In this document: in pieces, positions 116 through 57,702 of the stretch
Numbering within the stretch: position 1 is the stretch's first letter
Layout of the letters: each line of letters starts with the position of its first letter
Origin: a phage
Strand: one strand, 5' to 3'
DNA length: 64,000 nucleotides
Sequence record: PZ338877.1
Position numbers and translations under genes: made by a program
Notes under the pieces: model-generated
Seen by the model: only the letters and a program-made list of their open reading frames with translations
The model's database searches: none
Told to the model about the DNA's origin: nothing

Positions 116-159
116 AAAAAAAAAAAAGGTGATGTAAGCCTATCAAGACCCACATCACC
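116..159 (-). terminator. rho-independent terminator downstream of nrdD
   Basis: 8-bp stem GGTGATGT/ACATCACC (128-135/152-159) followed on minus strand by a 12-nt U-tract (116-127). Confidence 0.65.
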
Positions 160-169
160 TTGTCAAGTT

Positions 170-14831: not shown

Positions 14832-15254
14832 TTATTTCTCTCTCAGTTGGTTAAGTTTCTTTCTAGAACATTTTAAGTTTTCTGATGAAGAAAAGTCAAG
14901 TGTCTTTTCAGAACGTGGATAGTAATGTCTATCCCAAGAAGTTTCAACATCGTTAATCAGTGACGCTAGATTACACAGGTCTGTACCACTTTGCAACTTC
15001 TTTTTAAGAGAATCAAGTAAAGCAACTGTGTCTTTAGCTTTACGCCTCGCTGTAGCAACATCTTTCATATGCTCAAATACAGAGCATTTTAAGTCATCTT
15101 CATAGTTTTCAGACAACTCTATTTCATGTTGTATATCAACCATTCTCCTGTGATGGTGAGCATATTCCCGTTGAGCAGCAATGTCAAGTTCTTCCAACTT
15201 CTGCAAAGCTCTAACAAAGTCAGCTATGTCTGGGTGAACAAACATTTTCTGCAT
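14832..15254 (-). CDS. hypothetical protein
   Basis: 140 aa ORF, last gene of minus-strand block before divergent intergenic region. Confidence 0.5.
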   Translation of the reverse strand: MQKMFVHPDIADFVRALQKLEELDIAAQREYAHHHRRMVDIQHEIELSENYEDDLKCSVFEHMKDVATARRKAKDTVALLDSLKKKLQSGTDLCNLASLINDVETSWDRHYYPRSEKTLDFSSSENLKCSRKKLNQLREK

Positions 15255-15428
15255 GTAAGCCTCTTTTAAGTAACTATTAAGTTTTAATCTTTTATCTTAA
15301 CGTATTCTATACGTTATACTTTAAAGCTTTTTAAAAGCTATTAAATAATCTTTTAAGAGTTTTAAAGTATCTGTATAGTTAAACTGTTAAGTAACCTTTT
15401 AAGTAAAAACCCACTTCGCAAAGATTAA

Positions 15429-15466
15429 CACCTTGTCAAGTACATTGTCAACTTGCTTTTTATAAT
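15429..15466 (+). promoter_or_regulatory. conserved motif CACCTTGTCAAGTACATTGTCAAC plus TATAAT, upstream of DNA polymerase
   Basis: 24-nt motif repeated almost identically at 57419-57442; TATAAT at 15461-15466; spacing not canonical sigma70. Confidence 0.4.
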
Positions 15467-15511
15467 TTTTTGCAGTAATGTATGTGGTTAATGATTTTAG
15501 AGGGAGTAAAA

Positions 15512-18211
15512 ATGGAAAACGTAGATTTTAAAAACTTACATTTAGTTGGTGATACAGAAACTGATGGTTTACTCCTTGAGTTCACTAAAGTGCACGTAAT
15601 GGCTTTCGCAGACTATAAATCTGACGATGAAGAGCCACCTGTATGGGTCTTTACAGATGAGCCTATCCTCGGTCACAAGTATACCAAGTACATTAAGGGT
15701 GGTTTGCGTGAAGGTGTTGAGTTTGCGTTAAAGGCAAAACGACTTTGCATCCATAATGGTCTGGGGTATGACTGGTGGGTTTTCAATCACATTGCACCTG
15801 ATTTGTGGAACTTTGATAATCCAAAGTGTAAGCCGTGGAGTAATTTCTTTCAGGATTCTCTTATCCAGTCTCGTGTTCAGTGGATGGATAGACCAACTCC
15901 AAAGGGCTATAAAGGTGCTCATGGTTTGGCTGCATGGGGTGCTCGTGTTGGTGTCCGTAAACCAGAGATTGAACATTGGGGTGTGTGGAATGCAGAAATC
16001 TTCACTCGTGTTGTAGAAGATATCCGTATCAACGCCAAAACTAAACGTGCATTGGATAATGAATATCTGAAGCTAAAGAAGTGTGGCGTAGACACCTATG
16101 AAACCTATATGCGAGCTAAAGAGACATCTTTCTGGATGAGTCAACAGGCTATCAATGGTTGGAAAGCTGATAAAGAGCTTATGGAGTTCCATGTAAAGGA
16201 ACTTGACAAGTTGACTAATGAGCTTGCTTCAGAAGTTGAACCACACCTTCCACCAACTATTAAGACCAAAGGTAAAGTCACTGGAGAAGAGTTTGCAAAA
16301 GCTTGGAATGAGTATGTTGAAACATTCGGTCATGCAGATGGACTGAAGAGAATTACCAAGTACCCTAAGACAAAGTATCGTCAACAGGTACGTAACGGTG
16401 AGATGCAGACATATGAAATCAAGCCATTTGGTAAACCAACTACAAAGATTTTTAACATTGAAAAGAGAAATTGCTATACACCAACCAACTCTGTAACTGG
16501 TGAAGAGTACAAGGAAGGTTTTGTAGCAATGAAGGATGCTCGTGCAATTTGCAATGAGTTGAACGCAAAGATTGGTAAGAAATGCAAAGACTGGAAGCCA
16601 GTAAAAACAGTTAAAACTGTGAAGTACTATAACAGTCATGTTGTTAACCACTTTGAGCTTGAGTCAAGTCGCTACACAGGTTTGATTGATGCACCATATA
16701 CACCAATTGAGTTCGAAGTTTCTCGTATGACTCAGGTAGCAGTTGTTAAAGACTACTTGAAATCAGTTGGTTGGATTCCAGATGACTGGAACTACAAGAA
16801 AGACTCAGATGGTCGTCCTGTTAAGGTTTGTCGTTTTAAAGACAACAAAAAGATGATTACAAAACATCCTAAGTGGCAGGAGATGGTTGAACGGTGTGGT
16901 TTGAGTTATGTTGAACATGAAGGTGTCCAGTACATTGAGCATAACTGGTCTGTGAAGAAGTACACAGATTTGCTTGAACCTTGCTTAATCCGTACTTCAC
17001 CAAAACTTACTGAATCATCTTATGATACGATTGAAGGTGAGCTTGGACAGAAGATTGCTAAGTACTATACTTTGATGCACAGACGCAGAACTATTGAGAA
17101 CTCAAAGGATGATGAAAAAGGTTGGTTGAACCAGATTCGTCCTGATGGTCGCCTTAGTGCTGGTGCAATGGTGTTTGGTACTTCAACTGGACGTATGACA
17201 CAATATGGTATTGTAAACGTACCGTCTGGTGCTGCTGTCTATGGGGAACCAATGAGGGCAGTGTGGATTTGTGAAGAAGGCACTAATGTTGTCTCTGTAG
17301 ATATGAACTCAGCCCAGCTAGTTCTTCTTTGTAACTTTATGGGTGACAAAGACTTCACCAAAGCGGTAACGCAAGGTAAAGAAGAGATTGAGTTTATTCG
17401 TCAAGAAGATGGACGCTATTACTGCAAACACTTTGATGAGTACCTCAACCCAGAGATTGATAAGTACCTTCGCTATGACTCTGAGAATGACCTTTACGTT
17501 GTCTATTCAGGGACTGATGCACACACACTGAACAGTATTTACTTTAGCTTGAATGATGAGCAGGATATCTTGACTTGCCGAGCTACTCAGGATGAGAACC
17601 TTCTCCATGAGATTAGCAAGGGTCGTAAGAAAGCTAAGAATGGTATCTATGCACTGCTGTTCGGTGCAGGCGATGAGAAGTTTGCTAAGACGATTAAAGC
17701 TGCAACTACTCAGGAAGGCGCACTGACTAAACAGACTTACTTTATTCGTTTGCCTAAAATTAAGAAACTGCTAGATGACTTGGAAGCTGACTACAAAGCG
17801 ACTAAAAAGGCACTTGAAGAGGTGTTTGGTAAGACTGCTGCAATCTCTAAAGGGGGTTTTGTAAAGGTTGCTGGAGCTTGGTTGTGGTGTAAATCTCCAC
17901 ACAAACTGTTGAACTATCTTTTGATGGGTTCAGAGGCGCAGATTCAAAATGAGGCAATTAACCTTGCTTGTCGTCGTATGATTGACGAAGGTTTGATGAA
18001 GTTGAATGGTCGTCAACCAGCTATTGGTGCTCGTTTGCTCTGCGCATATCACGATGAGACGAGTTGGGAATGTCCAGAAAGTATGACGGCAGATGTGAAA
18101 GCAGTTACTGACTGGTATTATGGACAAGCTTCTAAAAACTTAGGTCTTAAGAAAGAAACACTTGTTACAGGTACTGGTAAGGTTGGTAAAAGCTGGCTTG
18201 AGGTGCACTAA
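15512..18211 (+). CDS. DNA polymerase, family A (Pol I-like) with 3'-5' exonuclease domain
   Basis: Exo I motif GDTETDG; motif B KKAKNGIYALLFG; motif C YHDE; AGGGAG RBS before ATG at 15512. Confidence 0.88.
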   Translation: MENVDFKNLHLVGDTETDGLLLEFTKVHVMAFADYKSDDEEPPVWVFTDEPILGHKYTKYIKGGLREGVEFALKAKRLCIHNGLGYDWWVFNHIAPDLWNFDNPKCKPWSNFFQDSLIQSRVQWMDRPTPKGYKGAHGLAAWGARVGVRKPEIEHWGVWNAEIFTRVVEDIRINAKTKRALDNEYLKLKKCGVDTYETYMRAKETSFWMSQQAINGWKADKELMEFHVKELDKLTNELASEVEPHLPPTIKTKGKVTGEEFAKAWNEYVETFGHADGLKRITKYPKTKYRQQVRNGEMQTYEIKPFGKPTTKIFNIEKRNCYTPTNSVTGEEYKEGFVAMKDARAICNELNAKIGKKCKDWKPVKTVKTVKYYNSHVVNHFELESSRYTGLIDAPYTPIEFEVSRMTQVAVVKDYLKSVGWIPDDWNYKKDSDGRPVKVCRFKDNKKMITKHPKWQEMVERCGLSYVEHEGVQYIEHNWSVKKYTDLLEPCLIRTSPKLTESSYDTIEGELGQKIAKYYTLMHRRRTIENSKDDEKGWLNQIRPDGRLSAGAMVFGTSTGRMTQYGIVNVPSGAAVYGEPMRAVWICEEGTNVVSVDMNSAQLVLLCNFMGDKDFTKAVTQGKEEIEFIRQEDGRYYCKHFDEYLNPEIDKYLRYDSENDLYVVYSGTDAHTLNSIYFSLNDEQDILTCRATQDENLLHEISKGRKKAKNGIYALLFGAGDEKFAKTIKAATTQEGALTKQTYFIRLPKIKKLLDDLEADYKATKKALEEVFGKTAAISKGGFVKVAGAWLWCKSPHKLLNYLLMGSEAQIQNEAINLACRRMIDEGLMKLNGRQPAIGARLLCAYHDETSWECPESMTADVKAVTDWYYGQASKNLGLKKETLVTGTGKVGKSWLEVH

Positions 18212-18272
18212 TTAGTATTGACAAGGTGCTCATGGAAGAGTACCTTATACAATATCTTATATAGGAGGGCTT

Positions 18273-23018: not shown

Positions 23019-23231
23019 ATGGCTCTTAAAAAGTTACATCCCAGAAGCGGTTATGGTAAGATAATTGATGATACAGACGGCTTTACAGTCTTTACAGTTA
23101 TCTGTCAAGATGATTCACAGATTGAAAAGGCTCTTGATGATTATCTTAATGATGAACGTGAAAAGGTTAGGGCTACAAACATAGATTCATTGATTGACAC
23201 TTCACGCAAACGGAAGAAGAAAGATGAATGA
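23019..23231 (+). CDS. hypothetical protein
   Basis: 70 aa, basic C-terminus. Confidence 0.4.
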   Translation: MALKKLHPRSGYGKIIDDTDGFTVFTVICQDDSQIEKALDDYLNDEREKVRATNIDSLIDTSRKRKKKDE

Positions 23232-23523
23232 GGTTTTTGACCCTTATGCTCCACAAGATGATTGGGAGGCTGACAGAGAGGCTGAAATGGAAAGCTATAT
23301 TTGTCCAATGGATGTAGACGAAATGAGAGATTTCGTTGCACATCGTTTTAAGAGAGAGATTAAATCCAGAGGTCTTTCTCAAGAGCAAGTTGCTAAAATT
23401 TGTGGTATCTCTCAGGCTCGTGTATCCAACATAGTCAATCTCACTGGTAATGTCTCTCTTGAGTTTATGTTGGAAGTATGCGAAAAATTTGGTGTTAATT
23501 TTAATTTAAGGCTGGCAGATTAA
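23224..23523 (+). CDS. helix-turn-helix transcriptional regulator (XRE/Cro-like)
   Basis: HTH-like segment LSQEQVAKICGISQARVSNIVN; start at MNEVF overlapping previous stop. Confidence 0.55.
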   Translation: MNEVFDPYAPQDDWEADREAEMESYICPMDVDEMRDFVAHRFKREIKSRGLSQEQVAKICGISQARVSNIVNLTGNVSLEFMLEVCEKFGVNFNLRLAD

Positions 23524-50061: not shown

Positions 50062-50137
50062 TGGAGAATCCGAAGGGACTCGAACCCTTATAAACCTGTT
50101 TTGCAGACAGGCACATATCCATTTCTGTCACGGATTC
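50062..50137 (-). tRNA. tRNA-Cys (anticodon GCA)
   Basis: minus-strand cloverleaf: T-arm AAGGG-ACTCGAA-CCCTT, anticodon arm CCTGT-TTTGCAG-ACAGG, acceptor CGGATTC, CCA encoded. Confidence 0.8.
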
Positions 50138-50141
50138 AAAT

Positions 50142-50234
50142 TGGAGGAAGATACCAGACTTGAACTGGTACACCGATTTCTCAGCTACTGGCAGTTTAGC
50201 AAACTGCTCCCTTACCTTTTAGGGTTAATCTTCC
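50142..50234 (-). tRNA. tRNA-Ser (anticodon GCU), class II
   Basis: T-arm ACCAG-ACTTGAA-CTGGT, anticodon arm GCAGT-TTAGCAA-ACTGC, 21-nt variable arm, 7-bp acceptor, CCA encoded. Confidence 0.75.
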
Positions 50235-50235
50235 A

Positions 50236-51033
50236 TTATTTCTGTAATGCGTTCTTCATTTCTGGTGTTGCAATAGTGTCAATCACACCAGTTTTACAAG
50301 CATCATCAAACCAGTCTGGTAAGATACCTGCTAAGAACCCATTGATATTCGTTTTAAGGTACTCTGCAATAAGGGCAGCTTCTTCTTCAATCATCTGCAC
50401 AACTTCATCTGCATAAGCTGTAATCTTCGAGATACCTTCATTAATCTTACTAACAGCTTGATTAGCTAAATCAGAAATAGTATCAAGACCTTTATCAATA
50501 GCATCCTGTAAGTCGCTTAATACACCATTAACGCCATCTAGTGTGCTGTTAATTGTATCCATAGCTTTTTGACCATACTCTGTAGCAACACCCATAATAC
50601 CACTAAATGGTGTACAACCAACTTGCTCTCCTGCTGCACCCATAACATTGGAGTAGCCTTTTGCTACCTGCATACGTGAGGAAAACTCATCAATAGATTT
50701 TTGACCATAATCTGTCAATGTTTTAGTAGTTGCTGTAGTGCTTGTCAGACTCGTTGTAAAGCTATTAAGCAGAACTGTTGTAAGTCCAGCAGCAATGAGC
50801 TTATCCTTCATTGTAGGGTCTGTTACAGAGCTAATAGAGCTTACAAGTGATGTAGAGGCAGCTACGGTTCCACCTAGAACTGCTGCACCAGTAATAAGGG
50901 GATTAGAAAACCCTCTACCGGTTTTTAAGAGATTAAAAATCTCCTTACCTTGTTCTGTCATCTCTTTCATTAAGCACCTTTGAAATTGGTAGTCCAGTGG
51001 GATTTGAACCCTCTTCTCATGTTTTTCAGACAC
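50236..51033 (-). CDS. hypothetical Ser/Thr/Ala-rich protein embedded in tRNA array
   Basis: 265 aa ORF between tRNA-Ser and tRNA-Phe. Confidence 0.45.
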   Translation of the reverse strand: MSEKHEKRVQIPLDYQFQRCLMKEMTEQGKEIFNLLKTGRGFSNPLITGAAVLGGTVAASTSLVSSISSVTDPTMKDKLIAAGLTTVLLNSFTTSLTSTTATTKTLTDYGQKSIDEFSSRMQVAKGYSNVMGAAGEQVGCTPFSGIMGVATEYGQKAMDTINSTLDGVNGVLSDLQDAIDKGLDTISDLANQAVSKINEGISKITAYADEVVQMIEEEAALIAEYLKTNINGFLAGILPDWFDDACKTGVIDTIATPEMKNALQK

Positions 51034-51063
51034 GCGCTTTAACCATATAAGCTACTTGGACTA
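50987..51063 (-). tRNA. tRNA-Phe (anticodon GAA)
   Basis: T-arm GTGGG-ATTTGAA-CCCTC, anticodon arm CATGT-TTTTCAG-ACACG; ends approximate. Confidence 0.65.
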
Positions 51064-51068
51064 TAAAT

Positions 51069-51144
51069 TGGGGTGACCTACGGGATTTGAACCCGTATAG
51101 ACCATGTTCACAGCATGGGTCATTACCATTTATGATAAGGCCAC
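51069..51144 (-). tRNA. tRNA-His (anticodon GUG)
   Basis: T-arm ACGGG-ATTTGAA-CCCGT, anticodon arm CCATG-TTCACAG-CATGG, D-stem TCAT/ATGA, CCA encoded. Confidence 0.8.
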
Positions 51145-51175
51145 ATTTAAGGACTCTCGTAAGAATCCTTAGAAG

Positions 51176-51251
51176 TGGCAGCGGCATAAGGATTTGAACC
51201 TTAATAAGACAGCTTCAGAGACTGCTGCATTGCCAGTTATGCTATACCGCT
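51176..51251 (-). tRNA. tRNA-Gln (anticodon CUG)
   Basis: T-arm TAAGG-ATTTGAA-CCTTA, anticodon loop TTCAGAG (rc CTCTGAA), D-stem GCAT/ATGC, CCA encoded. Confidence 0.75.
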
Positions 51252-51256
51252 AAATT

Positions 51257-51335
51257 TGGTACTCCATATCGGATTCGAACCGATACATAACACAGATTTT
51301 AAGTCTGGCCTCTCTGCCAATTGGAGTAATGGAGC
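51257..51335 (-). tRNA. tRNA with Leu-type anticodon UAA, short variable region
   Basis: T-arm ATCGG-ATTCGAA-CCGAT, anticodon loop TTTTAAG (rc CTTAAAA), 7-bp acceptor; only 79 nt. Confidence 0.6.
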
Positions 51336-51337
51336 AT

Positions 51338-51413
51338 TGGCGGGGGATGTTGGAATTGAACCAACTTCTTCGATTTCAAAGACCGAGGTTTTAACCTTGT
51401 AAACTAATCCCCT
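51338..51413 (-). tRNA. tRNA-Gln (anticodon UUG)
   Basis: T-arm GTTGG-AATTGAA-CCAAC, anticodon arm TCGAT-TTCAAAG-ACCGA, D-stem GTTT/AAAC, CCA encoded. Confidence 0.75.
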
Positions 51414-51421
51414 TTAAATCT

Positions 51422-51979
51422 TTACTTTCTTAGTGGATGAATAAAGAATGCCAACATAACTCTTTCCCTTGAGAATGCTCTTTCTTCTGGGACAACACTT
51501 TTAAGTTTCCATCCAACATAAATTCTCCAGTAGAATTGTTTACCAAAGACTTTAATTGATGGGATAAAGGCGAATAATCCCCAAGCATTACTGTTCCACA
51601 TTAGGAGATAACCTGTCTGATTATCTTCAGGGTCAGAACTTACGTTGATATTACCTTTCCACTTAGTAACATCTTTTACATCTCTTCCTAACACATGGTA
51701 AGAGAAGTTATAAGCTTTGTTTCTCCAGAGCCATCCAACTCTCTGCAAATAGACACCCAGCTTACCAATCTTTCTAATCTTAGCCCATCTTTTAATGTGA
51801 CCTTCATCACCATCAATTGGGTTGTCATATGTCTCCATCCATCTGAATCCGAAAGGTAGATGTCCTTTCTTCTCACTATAGAATGGAACTACAAAAGGTG
51901 CTAAGATAACTGCTAAGGTTGCTGCCAATGGGTCTAACAAAGCTAGGAAAATCCATGAAGCATACTTCAAATATCTCAT
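51422..51979 (-). CDS. membrane protein embedded in tRNA array
   Basis: 185 aa; N-terminal hydrophobic helices (ASWIFLALLDPLAATLAVILAPFVVPF). Confidence 0.45.
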   Translation of the reverse strand: MRYLKYASWIFLALLDPLAATLAVILAPFVVPFYSEKKGHLPFGFRWMETYDNPIDGDEGHIKRWAKIRKIGKLGVYLQRVGWLWRNKAYNFSYHVLGRDVKDVTKWKGNINVSSDPEDNQTGYLLMWNSNAWGLFAFIPSIKVFGKQFYWRIYVGWKLKSVVPEERAFSRERVMLAFFIHPLRK

Positions 51980-51998
51980 CTAAATAGCCTCTTTAAAT

Positions 51999-52074
51999 TG
52001 GTGCAGGATAAGGGATTCGAACCCCTATTAACAGCTTCGTAGACTGCTGCTCTATCCATTTGAACTAATCCTGC
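51999..52074 (-). tRNA. tRNA-Arg (anticodon ACG)
   Basis: T-arm AAGGG-ATTCGAA-CCCCT, anticodon loop TTCGTAG (rc CTACGAA), acceptor GCAGGAT/ATCCTGC, CCA encoded. Confidence 0.8.
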
Positions 52075-52188
52075 TTACCTACAAGAACACCATACAGTTT
52101 TTCACAATCTTTGTTTTTACGTCTGTTTAGGTATGACGCTCTAAACTTTTTTGCTATTGACTTATCACTCATAGTGCTCTCCCAAAAT

Positions 52189-52266
52189 TGGTGTTCCAAG
52201 ACGGATTCGAACCGTCACTAGTACAAGGTTTGAGCTTGCATCCTCTGCCAATTGGGATATTGGAAC
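52189..52266 (-). tRNA. tRNA with Leu-type anticodon CAA, class I-like (78 nt)
   Basis: T-arm GACGG-ATTCGAA-CCGTC, anticodon arm ACAAG-GTTTGAG-CTTGC, perfect acceptor GTTCCAA/TTGGAAC, A73, CCA encoded. Confidence 0.65.
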
Positions 52267-52267
52267 A

Positions 52268-52342
52268 TGGTGCTCACTAAAGGACTTGAACCTTTTTCTT
52301 CATCTTGTAAGGGTGATGTTTTACCATATAAACTAAGCGAGT
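52268..52342 (-). tRNA. tRNA-Val (anticodon UAC)
   Basis: T-arm AAAGG-ACTTGAA-CCTTT, anticodon loop TTGTAAG (rc CTTACAA), D-stem GTTT/AAAC. Confidence 0.7.
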
Positions 52343-52437
52343 ATGAAAGAGGTCTGAAGTTGTGCCGCTCACTCAACTCCGTGGAATTTGTTACGGTCTT
52401 CAGTTGACACCAGCGGTCTTTCACTTGACCTCTGAAT
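52343..52437 (-). ncRNA. structured non-tRNA element inside tRNA array (candidate small RNA)
   Basis: 95 nt between tRNA-Val and tRNA-Thr; closing 7-bp helix AGAGGUC/GACCUCU plus internal inverted repeats; lacks T-loop consensus; contains a GGTCTTCAG motif copy. Confidence 0.3.
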
Positions 52438-52513
52438 TGGTGCTCCCACAAGGATTCGAACCCTGATAAGTTGCTTACAAGGCAACCGTAATAGCCAATT
52501 ATACGATAGGAGC
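52438..52513 (-). tRNA. tRNA-Thr (anticodon UGU)
   Basis: T-arm CAAGG-ATTCGAA-CCCTG, perfect anticodon stem GTTGC/GCAAC with loop TTACAAG. Confidence 0.8.
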
Positions 52514-52520
52514 ATTAATT

Positions 52521-52595
52521 TGGAGCATCCAGAGGGAATCGAACCCTCAACCTCAGTTTGGAAGACTGTAATTTTCCCGTTTAAACTATGGATGC
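52521..52595 (-). tRNA. tRNA-Gly (anticodon UCC)
   Basis: T-arm GAGGG-AATCGAA-CCCTC, anticodon loop TTGGAAG, perfect acceptor GCATCCA/TGGATGC. Confidence 0.8.
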
Positions 52596-52601
52596 ACTAA
52601 T

Positions 52602-52677
52602 TGGTGGAGTCACTGAGAATTGAACTCAGTTCCCAAGTTTGCAAAACTCGAATTTTAACCATATAAACTATGACCCC
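52602..52677 (-). tRNA. tRNA-Ala (anticodon UGC)
   Basis: T-arm CTGAG-AATTGAA-CTCAG, anticodon arm CAAGT-TTGCAAA-ACTCG. Confidence 0.7.
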
Positions 52678-52683
52678 AATGTT

Positions 52684-52759
52684 TGGTACAGGTGGAGGGA
52701 ATTGAACCCATCGTCTTACTGATTAAGAGTCAGCCGCATAACCATTTTGCTACACCTGC
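52684..52759 (-). tRNA. tRNA-Lys (anticodon CUU)
   Basis: anticodon stem CTGA/TCAG with loop TTAAGAG; acceptor ACAGGTG/CACCTGC; paralogous to tRNA at 53998-54073. Confidence 0.7.
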
Positions 52760-52766
52760 ATTGATT

Positions 52767-52844
52767 TGGTAGGAGACAAGGGATTCGAACCCTCAAACAC
52801 CAACTTCTAAGGATGGTAGGTTTACCAATTACCGTCAATCTCCC
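52767..52844 (-). tRNA. tRNA with Leu-type anticodon UAG, class I-like (78 nt)
   Basis: T-arm AAGGG-ATTCGAA-CCCTC, anticodon arm CCAAC-TTCTAAG-GATGG, A73, CCA encoded. Confidence 0.6.
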
Positions 52845-53097
52845 ATTAAATCTTTTTAGAGAACTTCTAAGAACCTAAGCAACAAGGTTCCACAACAAGC
52901 TGTAATAACCTTAGAAGCCCTCTAAAAAGACCTAAATATGTCTTTGCATAGTCTTGTTTAATCCGGTGACTAGAACCTTTGGAGAGCTTGATATTATCTC
53001 TTCTCCGTGACACCTACTAGGTGCTTTATCAGTGTGTACGACAATACACGAGGGATAAACCGAAAATGCGAGCAAGCATGACGGTGTAAATCTTATT

Positions 53098-53188
53098 AGG
53101 CGGTAAGTAAAGGAGTCGAACCCTCACCGTATCTCTACAGTGGCAACAGTTTTCAAGACTGTTTGGCTGCCATTAGCCGCTACCTACC
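53098..53188 (-). tRNA. tRNA-Ser (anticodon UGA), class II
   Basis: T-arm AAAGG-AGTCGAA-CCCTC, perfect anticodon stem ACAGT/ACTGT with loop TTTCAAG, long variable arm. Confidence 0.7.
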
Positions 53189-53201
53189 CCTAATAAGACT
53201 T

Positions 53202-53284
53202 TGGCATGGGACGGAGGAGTTGAACCCCTTTGAAACGGTTTTGGAGGCCGTTGCTCATGCCTTAGAGTCTTAACATCGTCCCAC
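53202..53284 (-). tRNA. atypical tRNA-Trp-like gene (anticodon core CCA, 9-nt anticodon loop)
   Basis: T-arm GGAGG-AGTTGAA-CCCCT, acceptor ATGGGAC/GTCCCAC, CCA encoded; anticodon stem AACGG/CCGTT encloses 9 nt (tRNA sense CCUCCAAAA); D region about 8 nt longer than canonical. Confidence 0.5.
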
Positions 53285-53426
53285 ACTATAATTCGAAGCT
53301 TACCGTATTTTCGCAACACTGTAAAGCCCCTTCTCAGATTATTTACATGTTCTGGAAAACATGAGATACAGACCACCTCCTTACACGGAGACCCGATAAG
53401 GTCGTCTAAGCAATCTGCTAACTATT

Positions 53427-53503
53427 TGGCACACCCTACAGGATTCGAACCTGTAACTAACGATTTAGAAGACCGTTGCTCTATCCAATTGAACTAAGGG
53501 TGC
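53427..53503 (-). tRNA. tRNA-Arg (anticodon UCU)
   Basis: T-arm ACAGG-ATTCGAA-CCTGT, anticodon arm ACGAT-TTAGAAG-ACCGT, D-stem GCTC/GAAC. Confidence 0.8.
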
Positions 53504-53839
53504 ATTAATCTTTAAAGACTCTCTTAGAAAGCCCTTAAAGATGCCCACCTTATTAATCATACCGTGGGCGAGTACGCCAAATTCTTTGATGAGGGATTGG
53601 AAGACCTCACTGGTGTTTAGCCTATCAAGCTACTGCCAGAAAAACATTGTCGTTTGCATTTATTTTAAATTTGCAAAATAGACGCTACGCAACGAAAACT
53701 ATTCAGAATATGTACAACAAATTTCCCCACATTGTGTTACGTCTAACGCTCATGTATTGGTGTTTGAATTATACATATTGTGAAGTATTTTAGTTACTAT
53801 AAAGTGGTCACATCTTAATGTCAACAACTTTATTGAAAT

Positions 53840-53915
53840 TGGTACTGGTAGGTGGAATCGAACCACCGATGTTCCCTTATCAGGGGAGTGTTATAACCTT
53901 CTTAACTATACCAGC
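53840..53915 (-). tRNA. tRNA-Ile (anticodon GAU)
   Basis: T-arm GGTGG-AATCGAA-CCACC, anticodon loop TTATCAG, acceptor ACTGGTA/TACCAGC. Confidence 0.8.
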
Positions 53916-53916
53916 T

Positions 53917-53993
53917 TGGAGGTTCAGATGGGAATCGAACCCACATTCATAGGGCTTATGAGACCCCTGCATTACCTTATCTGCGACTGAACC
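53917..53993 (-). tRNA. tRNA with CAU anticodon (Met/fMet; three G-C pairs in anticodon stem)
   Basis: T-arm ATGGG-AATCGAA-CCCAC, anticodon arm AGGGC-TTATGAG-ACCCC, perfect acceptor GGTTCAG/CTGAACC. Confidence 0.75.
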
Positions 53994-53997
53994 ATAT

Positions 53998-54073
53998 TGG
54001 TAGAAGTGGAGGGATTCGAACCCATCGCCTGTCAGATTAAAAGTCTGCCGCATCACCATTCTGCTACACTTCC
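53998..54073 (-). tRNA. tRNA-Lys (anticodon UUU)
   Basis: anticodon stem CAGA/TCTG with loop TTAAAAG; acceptor AGAAGTG/CACTTCC. Confidence 0.7.
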
Positions 54074-54275
54074 ATTAAATTACCTTTGCAGTAACCTACG
54101 CAGACCTTGCTAAAGGGTCTGTAGAGTCATTTCCTCTTAAGCTAATCTAGAATCATGCTAAGGAAATTCATCGGCACTCATGGGACGACATAATTAGCCA
54201 CATAAGCTACTGCAAAGATAATTACCAGACCGTTGTTTATCATCTTAAGTGCTACCATTACACCAACTCGACATC

Positions 54276-54321
54276 TGCCGAGTGAAGGAATCGAACCTTC
54301 GCCTTTTCTTTACCGGAGAAA
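54276..54321 (-). pseudogene. tRNA-like fragment (3' half only)
   Basis: intact T-arm GAAGG-AATCGAA-CCTTC and 3' acceptor strand plus a 5-7-5 hairpin, but no complementary 5' acceptor strand; anticodon loop has C at position 33. Confidence 0.35.
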
Positions 54322-54336
54322 TAGATTGTTTAAGTT

Positions 54337-54360
54337 TTGCTGTAAACGGTCTTCTGTAAA
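54337..54360. repeat. short repeat family copy (TTGCTGTAAACGGTCTTCTGTAAA)
   Basis: one of 4-5 copies of TTGCTG(Y)A(W)(W)(Y)GGTCTTCTG within tRNA array. Confidence 0.7.
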
Positions 54361-54423
54361 TTTGTTGAGCCAGACCAAGTTTTAAATTTTTCAAAATTAA
54401 ATTGGCTTGAAATTTTAAGTAAC

Positions 54424-54444
54424 TTGCTGTATTTGGTCTTCTGC
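54424..54444. repeat. short repeat family copy (TTGCTGTATTTGGTCTTCTGC)
   Basis: same motif family. Confidence 0.7.
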
Positions 54445-54530
54445 TCCTTTAAAGAATACTCGTAAGAACTCTTTAAGGGAGGGGCTAAATAGCCCTCTCA
54501 AAACATCATCTTGAAATACTTATTATAATT

Positions 54531-54608
54531 TGGCGGTTACGAAGGGATTTGAACCCTCATCATCTCCCGTGACAGGGGAGTATTTTAACCAGATTAAACT
54601 ACATAACC
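54531..54608 (-). tRNA. tRNA-Asp (anticodon GUC)
   Basis: T-arm AAGGG-ATTTGAA-CCCTC, perfect anticodon stem CTCCC/GGGAG with loop GTGACAG. Confidence 0.8.
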
Positions 54609-54614
54609 TTTATT

Positions 54615-54702
54615 TGGTGTGCCGTGTAGGAGTCGAACCTACCGAGTCTCAATGACAAGGGATTTACAGTCCCCACCGCTACCATCTACGGGATAACGAC
54701 AC
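54615..54702 (-). tRNA. tRNA-Tyr (anticodon GUA), class II
   Basis: T-arm GTAGG-AGTCGAA-CCTAC, anticodon arm AGGGA-TTTACAG-TCCCC, 15-nt variable arm. Confidence 0.75.
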
Positions 54703-54773
54703 ATTTTATTATTCTATTCAGGCTAAGGACTTGCACCTTACAAATCGGTGAGCAATCGCTTCTCTCCTAAATT

Positions 54774-54850
54774 TGGCGGTTAGTCAGGGATTCGAACCCT
54801 GTGCCATTCGCTTAACAGGCGACCGCACATACCTTATGTGCTTCCTAACC
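54774..54850 (-). tRNA. tRNA-Asn (anticodon GUU)
   Basis: T-arm CAGGG-ATTCGAA-CCCTG, anticodon loop TTAACAG, D-stem GCAC/GTGC. Confidence 0.7.
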
Positions 54851-54902
54851 TTAATACATTGCCAGACCGTGTTTTTTTCTTTTATCCGCAAAAAGTAGTT
54901 TG

Positions 54903-54927
54903 TTGCTGCATACGGTCTTCTGCAAAA
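54903..54927. repeat. short repeat family copy (TTGCTGCATACGGTCTTCTGCAAA)
   Basis: same motif family, immediately 3' of tRNA at 54929. Confidence 0.7.
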
Positions 54928-54928
54928 T

Positions 54929-55005
54929 TGGAGGCGGGTGCAGGAGTCGAACCTGCCGATACCATGCTAATGAGACATGTGAGACGCCCTTTCTCTATAC
55001 CCGCA
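54929..55005 (-). tRNA. tRNA with CAU anticodon (second copy; Met or Ile2-type)
   Basis: T-arm GCAGG-AGTCGAA-CCTGC, anticodon arm CATGC-TAATGAG-ACATG; 1:72 unpaired; U at position 37. Confidence 0.6.
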
Positions 55006-55069
55006 ATTCTTAATGACCAGACCAAATCTCTTCTTTGTCCGATTTACCTTCAGATGAATAAGATTAAGT

Positions 55070-55094
55070 TTGCTGTAATTGGTCTTCTGTCAAA
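55070..55094. repeat. short repeat family copy (TTGCTGTAATTGGTCTTCTGTCAAA)
   Basis: same motif family, immediately 3' of tRNA-Glu. Confidence 0.7.
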
Positions 55095-55096
55095 AC

Positions 55097-55174
55097 TGGC
55101 GTTCCAGAAGGGATTTGAACCCTCAAATATCCACTTTGAAAGAGTGGTGACTTTACCATTTTGTCTACTGGAAC
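55097..55174 (-). tRNA. tRNA-Glu (anticodon UUC)
   Basis: T-arm AAGGG-ATTTGAA-CCCTC, perfect anticodon stem CCACT/AGTGG with loop TTGAAAG, perfect acceptor. Confidence 0.8.
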
Positions 55175-55181
55175 ATTAATT

Positions 55182-55258
55182 TGGTCTCTGTTGGAGGACT
55201 TGAACCTCCGGCCTTACCGCCCCAAACGGAACGCTCTACCAAGCTGAGCTAAACAGAG
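55182..55258 (-). tRNA. tRNA-Pro (anticodon UGG)
   Basis: T-arm GGAGG-ACTTGAA-CCTCC, anticodon loop CCCCAAA, D-stem GCTC/GAGC, perfect acceptor. Confidence 0.8.
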
Positions 55259-55423
55259 ATAAACTTTTCAAACTCTATGTAACCACTTTAACATTATTTT
55301 TTAGTGGTTGTCAAGAACTTTTTTAAAATATTTTTCAGTATCTTAGAAAAGCTCTCATTTCGTTTCTATGTAGAACATATTAAAGGGTATCAAACACATT
55401 GTCAATACCCTTTTTAAAACTTT

Positions 55424-56919: not shown

Positions 56920-57291
56920 TTATTTTTTGAGAGTCGCTACAGCAGAGAACGTTGGTTTGTTATCTGTCTGTGGCTGACCACCATTATCAGTGGTCTTCTT
57001 AGTGTCTGCTGCAAGTGCTTTCATCTCACCTGCTGAGTGAGTAAAGATAGTTTTACCGACCTCAATCATGCTCTTGATGGTTACGTCATCTGTGTTTAAC
57101 CCGAACTCTGCAAGTTTGGCAGCGTCCCTTGTAACAATCGCCTCAAACAACTTTGCAGCAAACTCAGCAGAATTATCAATGGTCAGTTGAGCTTTTACGA
57201 GTGAGCTTTTGTTACGTGAACCTTTTGGTCTTCCAGATGGGTTACCAGACTGGCCTTTTTTAAACTGGCCTTTGTTTGTTCTGTTTTTCAT
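56920..57291 (-). CDS. hypothetical protein with basic N-terminal GNPSGRPKG (AT-hook-like) motif
   Basis: 123 aa; N-terminus KGQFKKGQSGNPSGRPKGSRNK. Confidence 0.45.
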   Translation of the reverse strand: MKNRTNKGQFKKGQSGNPSGRPKGSRNKSSLVKAQLTIDNSAEFAAKLFEAIVTRDAAKLAEFGLNTDDVTIKSMIEVGKTIFTHSAGEMKALAADTKKTTDNGGQPQTDNKPTFSAVATLKK

Positions 57292-57418
57292 TGGTATGCC
57301 TCTTATAAGACCTCTTAAAAGGCTTTTAAGATAAAAGATAGATATCCAGAAAGATATCTGTTTAAATAGCCTTTTTAGAGGAACCTTTTAAGTTATCTTC
57401 TAAGTATTTATAAGCCTA

Positions 57419-57495
57419 CACCTTGTCAAGTACTTTGTCAACAACTTTTTTAGCTTGCAATAGTTCTTGACTTGTTGTATGGATTACTGTACCAT
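57419..57495 (+). promoter_or_regulatory. conserved motif CACCTTGTCAAGTACTTTGTCAAC followed by sigma70-like promoter
   Basis: motif near-identical to 15429-15452; downstream TTGACT (57467-57472) - 17 nt - TACCAT (57490-57495). Confidence 0.45.
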
Positions 57496-57540
57496 CTTAC
57501 TTAAAGCTGTAGGTCTGCCTTGTTCTACAAAGGAGACTTA

Positions 57541-57702
57541 ATGAGAAAATCAAACAACCCGAAGAAAGGTAAAAATACCAATCACTGTAAGGAATCAAAA
57601 AGGGTAGAGTTACTCTACTATTCATCCTCTGAAATTGGTCTGTACCTGTTCTTTCAAAATTACAGAAGACAAGAGGATTATCTATGTGTAGTTCCCAATT
57701 AG
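57541..57702 (+). CDS. hypothetical small basic protein
   Basis: 53 aa from ATG with AAGGAG RBS. Confidence 0.3.
   Translation: MRKSNNPKKGKNTNHCKESKRVELLYYSSSEIGLYLFFQNYRRQEDYLCVVPN

What the first reader, a model, noticed from the sequence alone, without database searches (positions are those of the whole stretch)
57296..57495. Second copy of the duplicated regulatory module
This is the paralogue of 15256-15466. It contains the palindrome AGATATC...GATATCT, the 24-nt motif at 57419-57442, and a downstream sigma70-like TTGACT-17-TACCAT promoter before the gene at 57541.
Basis: seen in the sequence. Interest (0 to 1): 0.45.

Follow-up and report, generated by a model that had tools for sequence, protein, structure and literature searches.

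The report
Duplicated double-hexamer promoter module, Felix-O1 phage

Summary
The window is a Felixounavirus (Felix O1-like) genome. Positions 57292-57540 and 15255-15511 are its only two divergent intergenic regions.

The 25-nt motif occurs exactly twice per genome. It is conserved across the Felixounavirus, Suspvirus and Mooglevirus genera.

Conservation falls on two TGTCAA hexamers 12 bp apart, and the 4 nt between them vary. On the minus strand these read TTGACA-N6-TTGACA. The distal hexamer lies 17-18 nt from a TAnnnT hexamer. That spacing holds at both regions in every Ounavirinae lineage checked.

I therefore read the motif as the core of a leftward sigma-70-type promoter with an extra -35-like hexamer in its spacer. 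I do not read it as an operator for the rightward TTGACT-17-TACCAT promoter. That rightward promoter is conserved, but it is not part of the duplication.

The duplicated part continues about 45 nt into the leftward leader. The leader is AT-rich, hairpin-forming, packed with CTTTTAAG octamers, and more conserved than the neighbouring genes.

The role of the second hexamer is unknown, and no transcription start sites are available. Interest is moderate.

The parts
57418..57442 (-). Shared 25-nt motif. On the minus strand it reads GTTGACAAAGTACTTGACAAGGTGT. It holds a distal -35 hexamer TTGACA (57441->57436), a variable spacer, and a second proximal TTGACA (57429->57424) followed by GGTGT.
   Evidence: Two copies in the window against 0 expected. 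Two copies in the whole JH2 genome. The hexamers are invariant and the spacer between them varies in relatives.
57413..57418 (-). Inferred -10 hexamer TAGGCT of the leftward promoter, 17 nt from the distal TTGACA. The transcription start is inferred near 57406.
   Evidence: TAnnnT is kept in relatives as TAGGCT, TAGCCT, TAGTGT or TAAGTT. The same 16-18 nt spacing holds in the Hafnia, Erwinia and Pectobacterium phages. No transcription start data exist.
57292..57406 (-). Inferred 5' leader of the leftward transcript (DUF5681 gene, RNA-binding protein gene, tRNA cluster, structural genes). It is 70% A+T, rich in CTTTTAAG-type octamers, and folds into one long imperfect hairpin.
   Evidence: Positions 57313-57400 are 94-95% identical to relatives whose adjacent DUF5681 gene is 76-81% identical. 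Octamers are enriched. The RNA fold has z = -2.66.
57340..57359 (.).
   Evidence: pair I13. It is invariant in 16 distinct relatives' sequences, so there is no covariation to test.
57313..57331 (.). Perfect 9-bp-arm palindrome TCTTAAAAG-G-CTTTTAAGA, formed by two opposed octamers.
   Evidence: pair I6. It is nearly invariant in relatives.
57382..57393 (+). 12-nt block AACCTTTTAAGT, identical to 15393-15404. It lies 23-24 nt to the left of the motif in both copies, at about +11 to +24 of the inferred leftward transcripts.
57467..57495 (+). It is not part of the duplication.
   Evidence: 9 of 12. It is invariant in relatives. Pectobacterium phage Wc4-1 has TTGACA-17-TACCAT at the same locus. The two window copies show no similarity on this side of the motif.
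57455..57483 (+). A second -35-like hexamer TTGCAA lies 12 bp upstream of TTGACT, and TATGGA lies 17 nt after TTGCAA. This rightward pair of hexamers mirrors the leftward pair.
   Evidence: pair I1: 25-nt arms, 72% complementary to the motif. It is conserved in relatives.
57508..57529 (+). Small hairpin TGTAG-N12-CTACA in the 5' UTR, just before the AAGGAG ribosome-binding site of the gene at 57541.
   Evidence: In relatives the stem is kept while the loop length varies.
15428..15452 (-). Copy 1 of the motif. The distal TTGACA is 18 nt from TAATCT (15427->15422), with TG at -15/-14. The rightward DNA polymerase promoter TTGCTT-17-TAATGT (15453-15481) abuts it back to back.
15255..15415 (-). 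Copy 1 inferred leftward leader. It is 77% A+T and holds an octamer array. The hairpin TAACGTAT-TCT-ATACGTTA lies at 15298-15316.
   Evidence: Octamers. Two compensatory base-pair changes occur in the hairpin among relatives. The RNA fold has z = -2.14.

Best explanation
Positions 57292-57540 are one of the two bidirectional promoter regions of a Felix O1-type phage. The part duplicated at 15255-15511 is a leftward host sigma-70-type promoter plus the first 70 nt or so of its transcript.

The 25-nt motif, read on the minus strand, holds the -35 hexamer TTGACA. It also holds a promoter spacer that contains a second TTGACA 12 bp downstream, and it ends at the -10 hexamer (TAGGCT here, TGT-TAATCT in copy 1).

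Host RNA polymerase would start near 57406. It would transcribe an AT-rich, hairpin-forming leader full of CTTTTAAG octamers, then the DUF5681 gene, the tRNA cluster and beyond.

The rightward TTGACT-17-TACCAT promoter is a separate, conserved, non-duplicated promoter for the small genes starting at 57541.

Shown: the sequence pattern, its conservation and its recurrence. Inferred: promoter activity, direction and start site. Unexplained: why a second -35-like hexamer is kept in the spacer.
For: 1. The window is a Felixounavirus. The genome has four transcription blocks and only two divergent junctions (PMC3185647). The motif occurs only at those two junctions, in the same orientation.
2. In relatives the invariant positions are exactly the two TGTCAA hexamers. 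The 4 nt between them vary freely.
3. The distal TTGACA is followed by TAnnnT after 16-18 nt at both junctions in five lineages: Felixounavirus, Hafnia phage Zyzzx, Erwinia phage phiEa104 with the related contig L030, and Pectobacterium phage Wc4-1. This includes lineages that have only one hexamer.
4. Exact TTGACA pairs 10-13 bp apart occur 8 times in four Ounavirinae genomes, against about 0.9 expected. Seven of the 8 have TAnnnT 17-18 nt after the distal hexamer.
5. The same arrangement turns up in unrelated uncultured T4-like viral contigs. Of 77 distinct non-Ounavirinae matches, 36 have TAnnnT at 16-18 nt, and 23 of those 36 have TG at -15/-14. This points to host polymerase recognition, not a Felix-specific factor.
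6. Similarity between the two copies extends only to the left of the motif.
7. The Felix O1 genome paper predicted a promoter, P41, using this same TTGACA (sequence checked).
Against: - No transcription start data exist for any Felix O1-type phage in the literature I could search.
- The inferred -10 hexamers are weak: TAGGCT and TAATCT each match the consensus at 3 of 6 positions. The generic promoter scan did not list them.
- A standard sigma-70 promoter does not need a conserved hexamer inside its spacer, so the model leaves the most distinctive feature unexplained.
- The leader is 94-95% identical between genera, which is more than promoter function alone requires.
- In the uncultured T4-like contigs the same architecture points antisense to the flanking genes. 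That is odd for an ordinary promoter.
Confidence: 0.6

Rival explanations
1. The two hexamers, or the 11-mer TTGACAAGGTG, form an operator for a phage-encoded DNA-binding protein. The candidate is the 99-aa Xre-type helix-turn-helix protein at 23224-23523. It would switch both divergent regions off or on during infection, giving the temporal control that is still unexplained for Felix O1.
For: - Conserved half-sites with a variable spacer are typical of protein-binding sites.
- There are exactly two sites per genome, at the two control regions.
- TTGACAAGGTG occurs 4 times in the window. All four are intergenic and point the same way as transcription.
- The helix-turn-helix protein matches Pfam HTH_3 at E = 7.5e-11. 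It is present in the Felixounavirus, Suspvirus and Mooglevirus phages and is not detected in Erwinia, Hafnia or Pectobacterium relatives.
- Its gene lies in the operon driven from copy 1.
- The Felix O1 paper states that temporal regulation is unknown.
Against: - The invariant positions coincide exactly with the sigma-70 -35 hexamer, not with a wider or different site.
- The half-sites are direct repeats, whereas Xre/Cro dimers normally bind inverted repeats.
- Hafnia phage Zyzzx has paired hexamers at both junctions, with periods of 10 and 11 bp, but has no homologue of the protein.
- phiEa104 has paired-hexamer promoters elsewhere in its genome and also lacks the protein.
- The same architecture occurs in unrelated marine T4-like contigs.
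Confidence: 0.2
2. The conserved promoter plus AT-rich leader is a replication origin of the T4 oriF/oriG type. The leftward transcript would stay hybridised in the easily unwound leader and prime DNA synthesis. The octamer array would serve as the unwinding or initiator-binding region.
For: - The leaders are 70-77% A+T against 61% for the genome.
- They are more conserved than the flanking genes.
- They carry dense arrays of CTTTTAAG-type octamers: 6 of the 20 exact copies in the window lie in 299 bp, p about 1e-9.
- They form long imperfect palindromes.
- Both lie at strand-switch points of GC skew, and one lies next to the replication genes.
- In the marine T4-like contigs the same promoter type points antisense to the genes, as a priming promoter could.
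Against: - GC skew here simply follows the direction of transcription.
- I read no convincing DnaA box in either region; this was by eye, with no dedicated scan.
- The octamers are much shorter than typical iterons.
- Nothing is known about origins in this phage group.
- A leader that regulates translation or RNA stability explains the same conservation.
Confidence: 0.08
3. The main conserved function lies in the leftward leader RNA. It would be a structured 5' UTR, with SD-like AAGAGG/AAGG and anti-SD-like CCUCU/CCUUU segments, that controls translation or stability of the first gene. The DNA motif would be only its promoter. This is compatible with the best explanation and adds a layer to it.
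For: - Predicted folds are more stable than shuffles, with z = -2.66 and -2.14.
- The copy 1 hairpin at 15298-15316 keeps its pairing through two compensatory changes in relatives.
- Both leaders have a 7-8 bp hairpin 46-68 nt upstream of the start codon.
- The leader is 94-95% identical between genera.
Against: - Copy 2 is invariant, so it offers no covariation.
- The z-scores are modest.
- There is no Rfam match.
- AT-rich quasi-palindromic octamers produce hairpins automatically.
Confidence: 0.1

Closest known systems
Back-to-back divergent sigma-70 early promoters of virulent coliphages, including the P41 promoter predicted in the Felix O1 genome paper (PMC3185647)
   Same: A consensus TTGACA -35 hexamer, a 17-18 nt spacer and a TAnnnT -10 hexamer, sitting in a divergent intergenic region and read by unmodified host polymerase. 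P41 uses the same distal TTGACA.
   Different: A second perfect TTGACA is conserved inside the spacer. The promoter core plus the start of its leader is duplicated at the second divergent junction. The paper paired the hexamer with TATAGG at 15 nt, and it reported no other shared sequence in the two regions.
Phage operator regions bound by Cro/CI/Xre-type repressors (lambda OR, P22, 434)
   Same: Short repeated sites overlap divergent promoters, and an Xre-type protein is encoded by the phage.
   Different: The sites are direct repeats, not inverted repeats. They coincide with the -35 hexamer. They occur in relatives that lack the protein. The phage is virulent.
T4 middle promoters (MotA box at -30 with AsiA-remodelled sigma-70)
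   Same: A conserved element lies between the usual -35 position and the -10 hexamer, suggesting a factor that contacts the spacer.
   Different: There is no TGCTT-type MotA box. A perfect -35 is kept. The extra hexamer is centred near -21, not -30. The Felix O1 paper reports no polymerase-modifying proteins.
T4 origins oriF/oriG (promoter followed by a DNA unwinding element)
   Same: A strong promoter is followed by a conserved AT-rich untranslated stretch.
   Different: There is no evidence of origin activity, and here the leader also precedes ordinary genes.
PeSL cassettes of T4-type phages (early promoter combined with a stem-loop), recalled from memory and not checked in a paper
   Same: A repeated promoter-containing cassette is found at several places in a phage genome. 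Two other sites in this window place a TTGACA inside a terminator-like hairpin.
   Different: At 57418-57442 the hexamers are not inside a stem-loop, and the cassette is found only at the divergent junctions.

Membership tests
Sigma-70-type promoter (leftward, minus strand) | -35 hexamer close to TTGACA | tested here: met
   The hexamer is a perfect TTGACA at 57441->57436 and at 15451->15446. It is invariant in all relatives.
Sigma-70-type promoter (leftward, minus strand) | -10 hexamer TAnnnT 16-18 nt downstream of the -35 | tested here: met
   TAGGCT at 17 nt and TAATCT at 18 nt (the latter with TG at -15/-14). The same spacing holds at both junctions in five lineages. The hexamers match the consensus at only 3 of 6 positions.
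Sigma-70-type promoter (leftward, minus strand) | Transcripts start 6-8 nt after the -10 hexamer, and activity depends on the hexamers | not testable with these tools
   No transcription start data were found for Felix O1-type phages.
   It scores 9 of 12. It is invariant in the Felixounavirus/Suspvirus/Mooglevirus relatives. Pectobacterium phage Wc4-1 has TTGACA-17-TACCAT. Such matches are not above chance as a class.
Cro/CI/Xre-type operator | Dyad-symmetric site of about 14-18 bp | tested here: not met
   The two half-sites are direct repeats with a 12-bp period. The spacer, which would form the centre of any dyad, is variable.
Cro/CI/Xre-type operator | The site co-occurs with its cognate regulator across genomes | tested here: not met
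   The helix-turn-helix protein is absent from Hafnia phage Zyzzx, which has paired hexamers at both junctions. It is also absent from phiEa104, which has paired-hexamer promoters elsewhere.
T4 late promoter (TATAAATA, gp55-dependent) | TATAAATA at -10, recurring upstream of late genes | tested here: not met
   TATAAATA occurs next to the motif at 57405-57412 but only 3 times in the window. It is not kept in relatives, which have TAATAAAT or TAATAAAA.
T4 middle promoter (MotA/AsiA) | MotA box (a/t)(a/t)(a/t)TGCTT(t/c)A centred at -30, replacing the -35 | tested here: not met
   No such box lies upstream of the leftward -10 hexamers, and a perfect -35 is present. MotA/AsiA homologues were not searched for here. 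The Felix O1 paper reports none.
Replication origin (iterons plus AT-rich unwinding element) | AT-rich region next to repeated initiator sites | tested here: inconclusive
   The leaders are 70-77% A+T and octamers are enriched. The octamers are short, and I read no clear DnaA box by eye.
Known RNA families (Rfam 15) | A match to a covariance model | tested here: not met
   Only one sub-threshold miRNA-precursor match, E = 0.21, in 57200-57620. Nothing in 15200-15560.

The most novel reading that the evidence does not exclude
The paired TTGACA hexamers, the 11-mer TTGACAAGGTG and the CTTnnAAG octamer arrays could be the DNA targets of an as yet unidentified factor. That factor would reprogramme host sigma-70 polymerase at a small set of promoters. 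It could be a protein that engages a -35-like hexamer centred near -21, as MotA does at -30 in T4, or a switch that doubles as an R-loop replication origin. This would supply the missing early-to-late control of Felix O1-type phages. Because the same promoter architecture recurs in uncultured marine T4-like phages, it would define a widespread and undescribed class of phage promoter.
Probability: 0.15. Interest if true: 0.7.

Novelty: new variant of a known kind. Interest (0 to 1): 0.4.

Why it matters
Felix O1-type phages are widely used for Salmonella and E. coli typing, biocontrol and therapy. The reference genome paper says it is not known how their transcription is timed, and it reported no shared sequence in the two divergent control regions.

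This analysis does four things.
- It locates a shared, strongly conserved module at exactly those two regions.
- It assigns the module a direction.
- It defines the elements to mutate.
- It shows that a promoter with a second -35-like hexamer in its spacer recurs in several phage groups.

If the extra hexamer proves functional, it would be a new promoter element or factor target. If it does not, the region is an ordinary pair of strong host-type promoters.

Tried and rejected
- **Motif as a rightward promoter or upstream element.** On the plus strand the TTGTCA hexamers pair with no conserved -10 hexamer in copy 1. The distance from the motif to the rightward -35 differs between the copies, 0 nt against 12-25 nt.
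- **Proximal TTGACA as the -35 of a second leftward promoter.** There is no TAnnnT 16-18 nt downstream of it in copy 1, in Hafnia, or at the other paired-hexamer sites. Copy 2 has only TACTTA.
- **T4-type late promoter TATAAATA.** It is not recurrent and not conserved.
- **Host regulator sites.** From memory I compared the motif with the Pho box, PhoP, OmpR, CpxR, FNR, CRP, Fis, IHF, DnaA and sigma-32/24/28 consensus sequences. None fits. The Pho box is the nearest, with CTGTCAT repeats, but its period is 11 bp, not 12. These were not scanned formally.
- **A trans-acting factor found by phyletic profile.** The only real proteins shared by the Felix-like and Hafnia phages but absent from phiEa104 and Wc4-1 are a DUF7338 protein (51422-51979, minus strand) and a 66-aa protein of unknown function. 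Neither has a DNA-binding signature.
- **Helix-turn-helix protein against solved structures.** Only a 'CAP REPEAT' chain (8vd6) and PezA (2p5t) matched, which says nothing about specificity.
- **Literature.** I searched for transcriptomics of Felixounavirus and for the motif string. I found nothing relevant.
- **Cultured-phage BLAST with the marine T4-like version of the motif.** It returned only Felix-like phages.
- **Failed scripts.** One search failed on a file name. The dinucleotide-shuffle script timed out and was replaced by first-order Markov simulations.

Full report
**What the window is.** BLAST of both loci gives 98-99% identity to many Felixounavirus genomes, such as JH2 and BPS17W1, which are Felix O1-like myoviruses of about 87 kb. 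The annotated relative JH2 has four blocks of co-oriented genes and therefore two divergent and two convergent junctions. The Felix O1 genome paper describes the same four 'transcriptons'. It says that apart from one predicted promoter, P41, no obviously homologous sequences were found in the two divergent regions, and that temporal regulation is unknown (PMC3185647). In the window the divergent junctions are at two places.
- 15255-15511 lies between a 140-aa gene and the DNA polymerase gene.
- 57292-57540 lies between a DUF5681 gene and a run of small genes.

GC skew changes sign at both junctions, following the direction of transcription.

**Checking the observation.**
- The palindrome AGATATC-N6-GATATCT lies at 57340-57359.
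- The motif lies at 57418-57442.
- TTGACT-17-TACCAT lies at 57467-57495.
- The gene start lies at 57541.

The motif ACACCTTGTCAAGTACWTTGTCAAC occurs twice in the window, against none in 100 shuffles. It occurs only twice in the complete JH2 genome, where the next best site has 7 mismatches. Both copies are in the same orientation relative to the flanking genes.

**How far the duplication extends.** Local alignment of the two regions is highly significant for the motif (46 against 21.5 +/- 2.8). It is modestly significant for about 45 nt to its left, the stretch AAAG-TATCTGT...AACCTTTTAAGT (32 against 20.6 +/- 3.4, reached by 4 of 300 shuffles). It is not significant to the right.

**Conservation.** I fetched both loci from 28-29 IMG/VR contigs that span the Felixounavirus, Suspvirus and Mooglevirus genera. 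Three results stand out.
- The intergenic regions are more conserved than the genes beside them. The whole of 57292-57540 is 87-90% identical to relatives. Positions 57313-57400 are 94-95% identical and 57465-57540 are 95-97% identical. The DUF5681 gene is 76-81% identical (alignments).
- Within the motif, the invariant positions are the two TGTCAA hexamers. The 4 nt between them take at least eight different forms.
The hairpin at the equivalent place in copy 1 (TAACGTAT-TCT-ATACGTTA, 15298-15316) keeps its pairing through two compensatory changes: A.T to T.A at the outer pair, and C.G to T.A at an inner pair.

**Reading the motif.** On the minus strand the motif is GTTGACA-AAGTAC-TTGACA-AGGTG-TAGGCT, that is, two perfect -35 hexamers 12 bp apart followed by a TAnnnT hexamer.

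The distal hexamer lies 17 nt from TAGGCT in copy 2. In copy 1 it lies 18 nt from TAATCT, with TG at -15/-14.

I tested this reading in more distant Ounavirinae. These were Erwinia phage phiEa104 with the related contig L030, Hafnia phage Zyzzx and Pectobacterium phage Wc4-1. At both junctions of every lineage, a TTGACA on the strand of the leftward genes is followed by TAnnnT after 16-18 nt. The -10 hexamers seen are TACATT, TAGAAT, TATTGT, TACTCT, TAGGCT and TACCCT.

The lineages differ in how many hexamers they carry.
- Erwinia and Pectobacterium phages have a single hexamer.
- The Hafnia phage has two at both junctions, but 10 and 11 bp apart instead of 12.

The distance from the distal hexamer to the -10 hexamer is thus held constant while the inner hexamer shifts. 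That is what a sigma-70-type promoter predicts.

The Felix O1 paper's P41 uses this same TTGACA, paired with TATAGG at 15 nt. Felix O1 itself has ATACC where the window has ACACC.

**The extra hexamer.** Exact TTGACA pairs 10-13 bp apart occur 8 times in four Ounavirinae genomes, against about 0.9 expected from Markov simulations. Seven of the 8 have TAnnnT 17-18 nt after the distal hexamer. These include a third JH2 site outside the window and two phiEa104 sites away from the junctions. The proximal hexamer has no -10 hexamer of its own at 16-18 nt in most cases.

In the window the proximal hexamer with its flank, TTGACAAGGTG, occurs four times. All four are intergenic and point the same way as transcription. 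At two of them (156-166 and 18218-18228) it is the only -35 hexamer of a promoter-like site.

The rightward side of 57292-57540 mirrors this arrangement. TTGCAA and TTGACT lie 12 bp apart, followed by TATGGA and TACCAT (pair I1).

**The same architecture in unrelated phages.** A pattern scan of IMG/VR for CTTGTCAAG-N4-TTGTCAA returned, besides Felix-like contigs, many low-GC uncultured contigs. At least one of them is T4-like: it encodes a gp55-type late sigma factor about 51% identical to those of cyanomyoviruses. Of 77 distinct non-Ounavirinae matches, 36 have TAnnnT 16-18 nt after the distal hexamer, where chance would give about 8%. Of those 36, 23 have TG at -15/-14. In those contigs the promoter-like sites mostly point antisense to the flanking genes, which I cannot explain.

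This recurrence argues that the arrangement is read by host polymerase and not by a Felix-specific protein.

**The leader.** The 115-160 nt between the inferred starts and the leftward start codons are 70-77% A+T, against 61% for the genome. They carry arrays of CTTTTAAG-type octamers. Six of the 20 exact copies in the 64-kb window lie in these 299 bp (expected 0.09). The two regions are the densest windows for this motif in the whole sequence.

Because the octamers are quasi-palindromic, the leaders fold into long imperfect hairpins as RNA, with z = -2.66 and -2.14. They form the equivalent inverted repeats as DNA. Related octamers (CTGTTAAG, CTTTAAAG) fill the same regions in the Erwinia, Hafnia and Pectobacterium phages. 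There is no Rfam match.

Whether this conservation reflects an RNA leader, a protein-binding array or an origin-like unwinding element cannot be decided here.

**Candidate regulator.** The only recognisable DNA-binding protein near these operons is a 99-aa Xre-type helix-turn-helix protein at 23224-23523. It is present in 261 phage records of the Felixounavirus/Suspvirus/Mooglevirus group. It is absent from the Erwinia, Hafnia and Pectobacterium relatives.

That distribution matches the exact 12-bp form of the motif. It does not match the paired-hexamer architecture in general, and the half-sites are direct repeats identical to the -35 consensus. I therefore rank an operator role second. A phyletic-profile search for other factors gave nothing convincing.

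**Verdict.** However, the shared motif is best explained as the core of a leftward sigma-70-type promoter with an unexplained, conserved second -35-like hexamer, together with the start of a highly conserved leader.

It is a new variant of a known kind of element. I found no description of it in the literature I could search. Everything about activity, direction and start sites is inferred from sequence.

Noticed in passing
IMG/VR loci L073-L192, for example L110:1520-1548: Dozens of uncultured low-GC viral contigs carry TTGACAAAG-N3-CTTGACAAG-TGn-TAnnnT. This is the same paired-hexamer promoter architecture. L110 encodes a gp55-type late sigma factor and so is T4-like. The sites lie in short gaps between co-oriented genes and mostly point antisense to them.
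   Followed up: partly
window 156-166 (-), 18218-18228 (+), 15429-15439 (-), 57419-57429 (-): The 11-mer TTGACAAGGTG occurs four times. All four copies are intergenic and point the same way as transcription. Two of them are the sole -35 hexamer of a promoter-like site (TTGACA-18-TAGGCT and TTGACA-17-TACCTT).
   Followed up: partly
window 55382-55413 (-) and about 120-160 (-): Terminator-like hairpins that enclose a TTGACA -35 hexamer. One is AAAGGGTATTGACAATGTGTTTGATACCCTT; the homologous Felix O1 sequence is listed as a terminator in the genome paper. The other is AAGGTGATGT...ACATCACCTT followed by a T-run. They recall the promoter-plus-stem-loop cassettes of T4-type phages.
   Followed up: no
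JH2 87259-87277 (-), locus L002; outside the window: A third paired-hexamer promoter in the Felixounavirus genome: TTGACA-N7-TTGACA, with TAACTT 17 nt after the distal hexamer. It lies between two small leftward genes.
   Followed up: partly
window 15298-15316: The hairpin or palindrome TAACGTAT-TCT-ATACGTTA in the copy 1 leader keeps its pairing through two compensatory changes in Suspvirus- and Mooglevirus-like relatives.
   Followed up: yes
window 57508-57535: A small hairpin TGTAG-N12-CTACA lies directly upstream of the AAGGAG ribosome-binding site of the 53-aa gene at 57541. In relatives the stem is kept while the loop length varies.
   Followed up: partly
window 23224-23523 (+): A 99-aa Xre-type helix-turn-helix protein (HTH_3, E = 7.5e-11; weak sub-threshold similarity to sigma-70 region 4). 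It is restricted to the Felixounavirus, Suspvirus and Mooglevirus phages and was not detected in Erwinia, Hafnia or Pectobacterium Ounavirinae.
   Followed up: partly
window 51422-51979 (-): A DUF7338 protein inside the tRNA cluster is 86% identical between the Felix-like phage JH2 and Hafnia phage Zyzzx, far above the roughly 55% typical for these genomes. It was not detected in phiEa104 or Wc4-1. This suggests a recent exchange.
   Followed up: no
window 50062-55258 (-): A cluster of 26 tRNA genes on the minus strand, downstream of the leftward promoter discussed here.
   Followed up: no
window 15482-18211 (+): The DNA polymerase ORF is uninterrupted here (909 codons from the first ATG). In JH2 the gene is annotated in two pieces flanking an endonuclease VII gene. 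The real start is probably the ATG at 15512, after the GAGGGAG ribosome-binding site, not the one at 15482.
   Followed up: no
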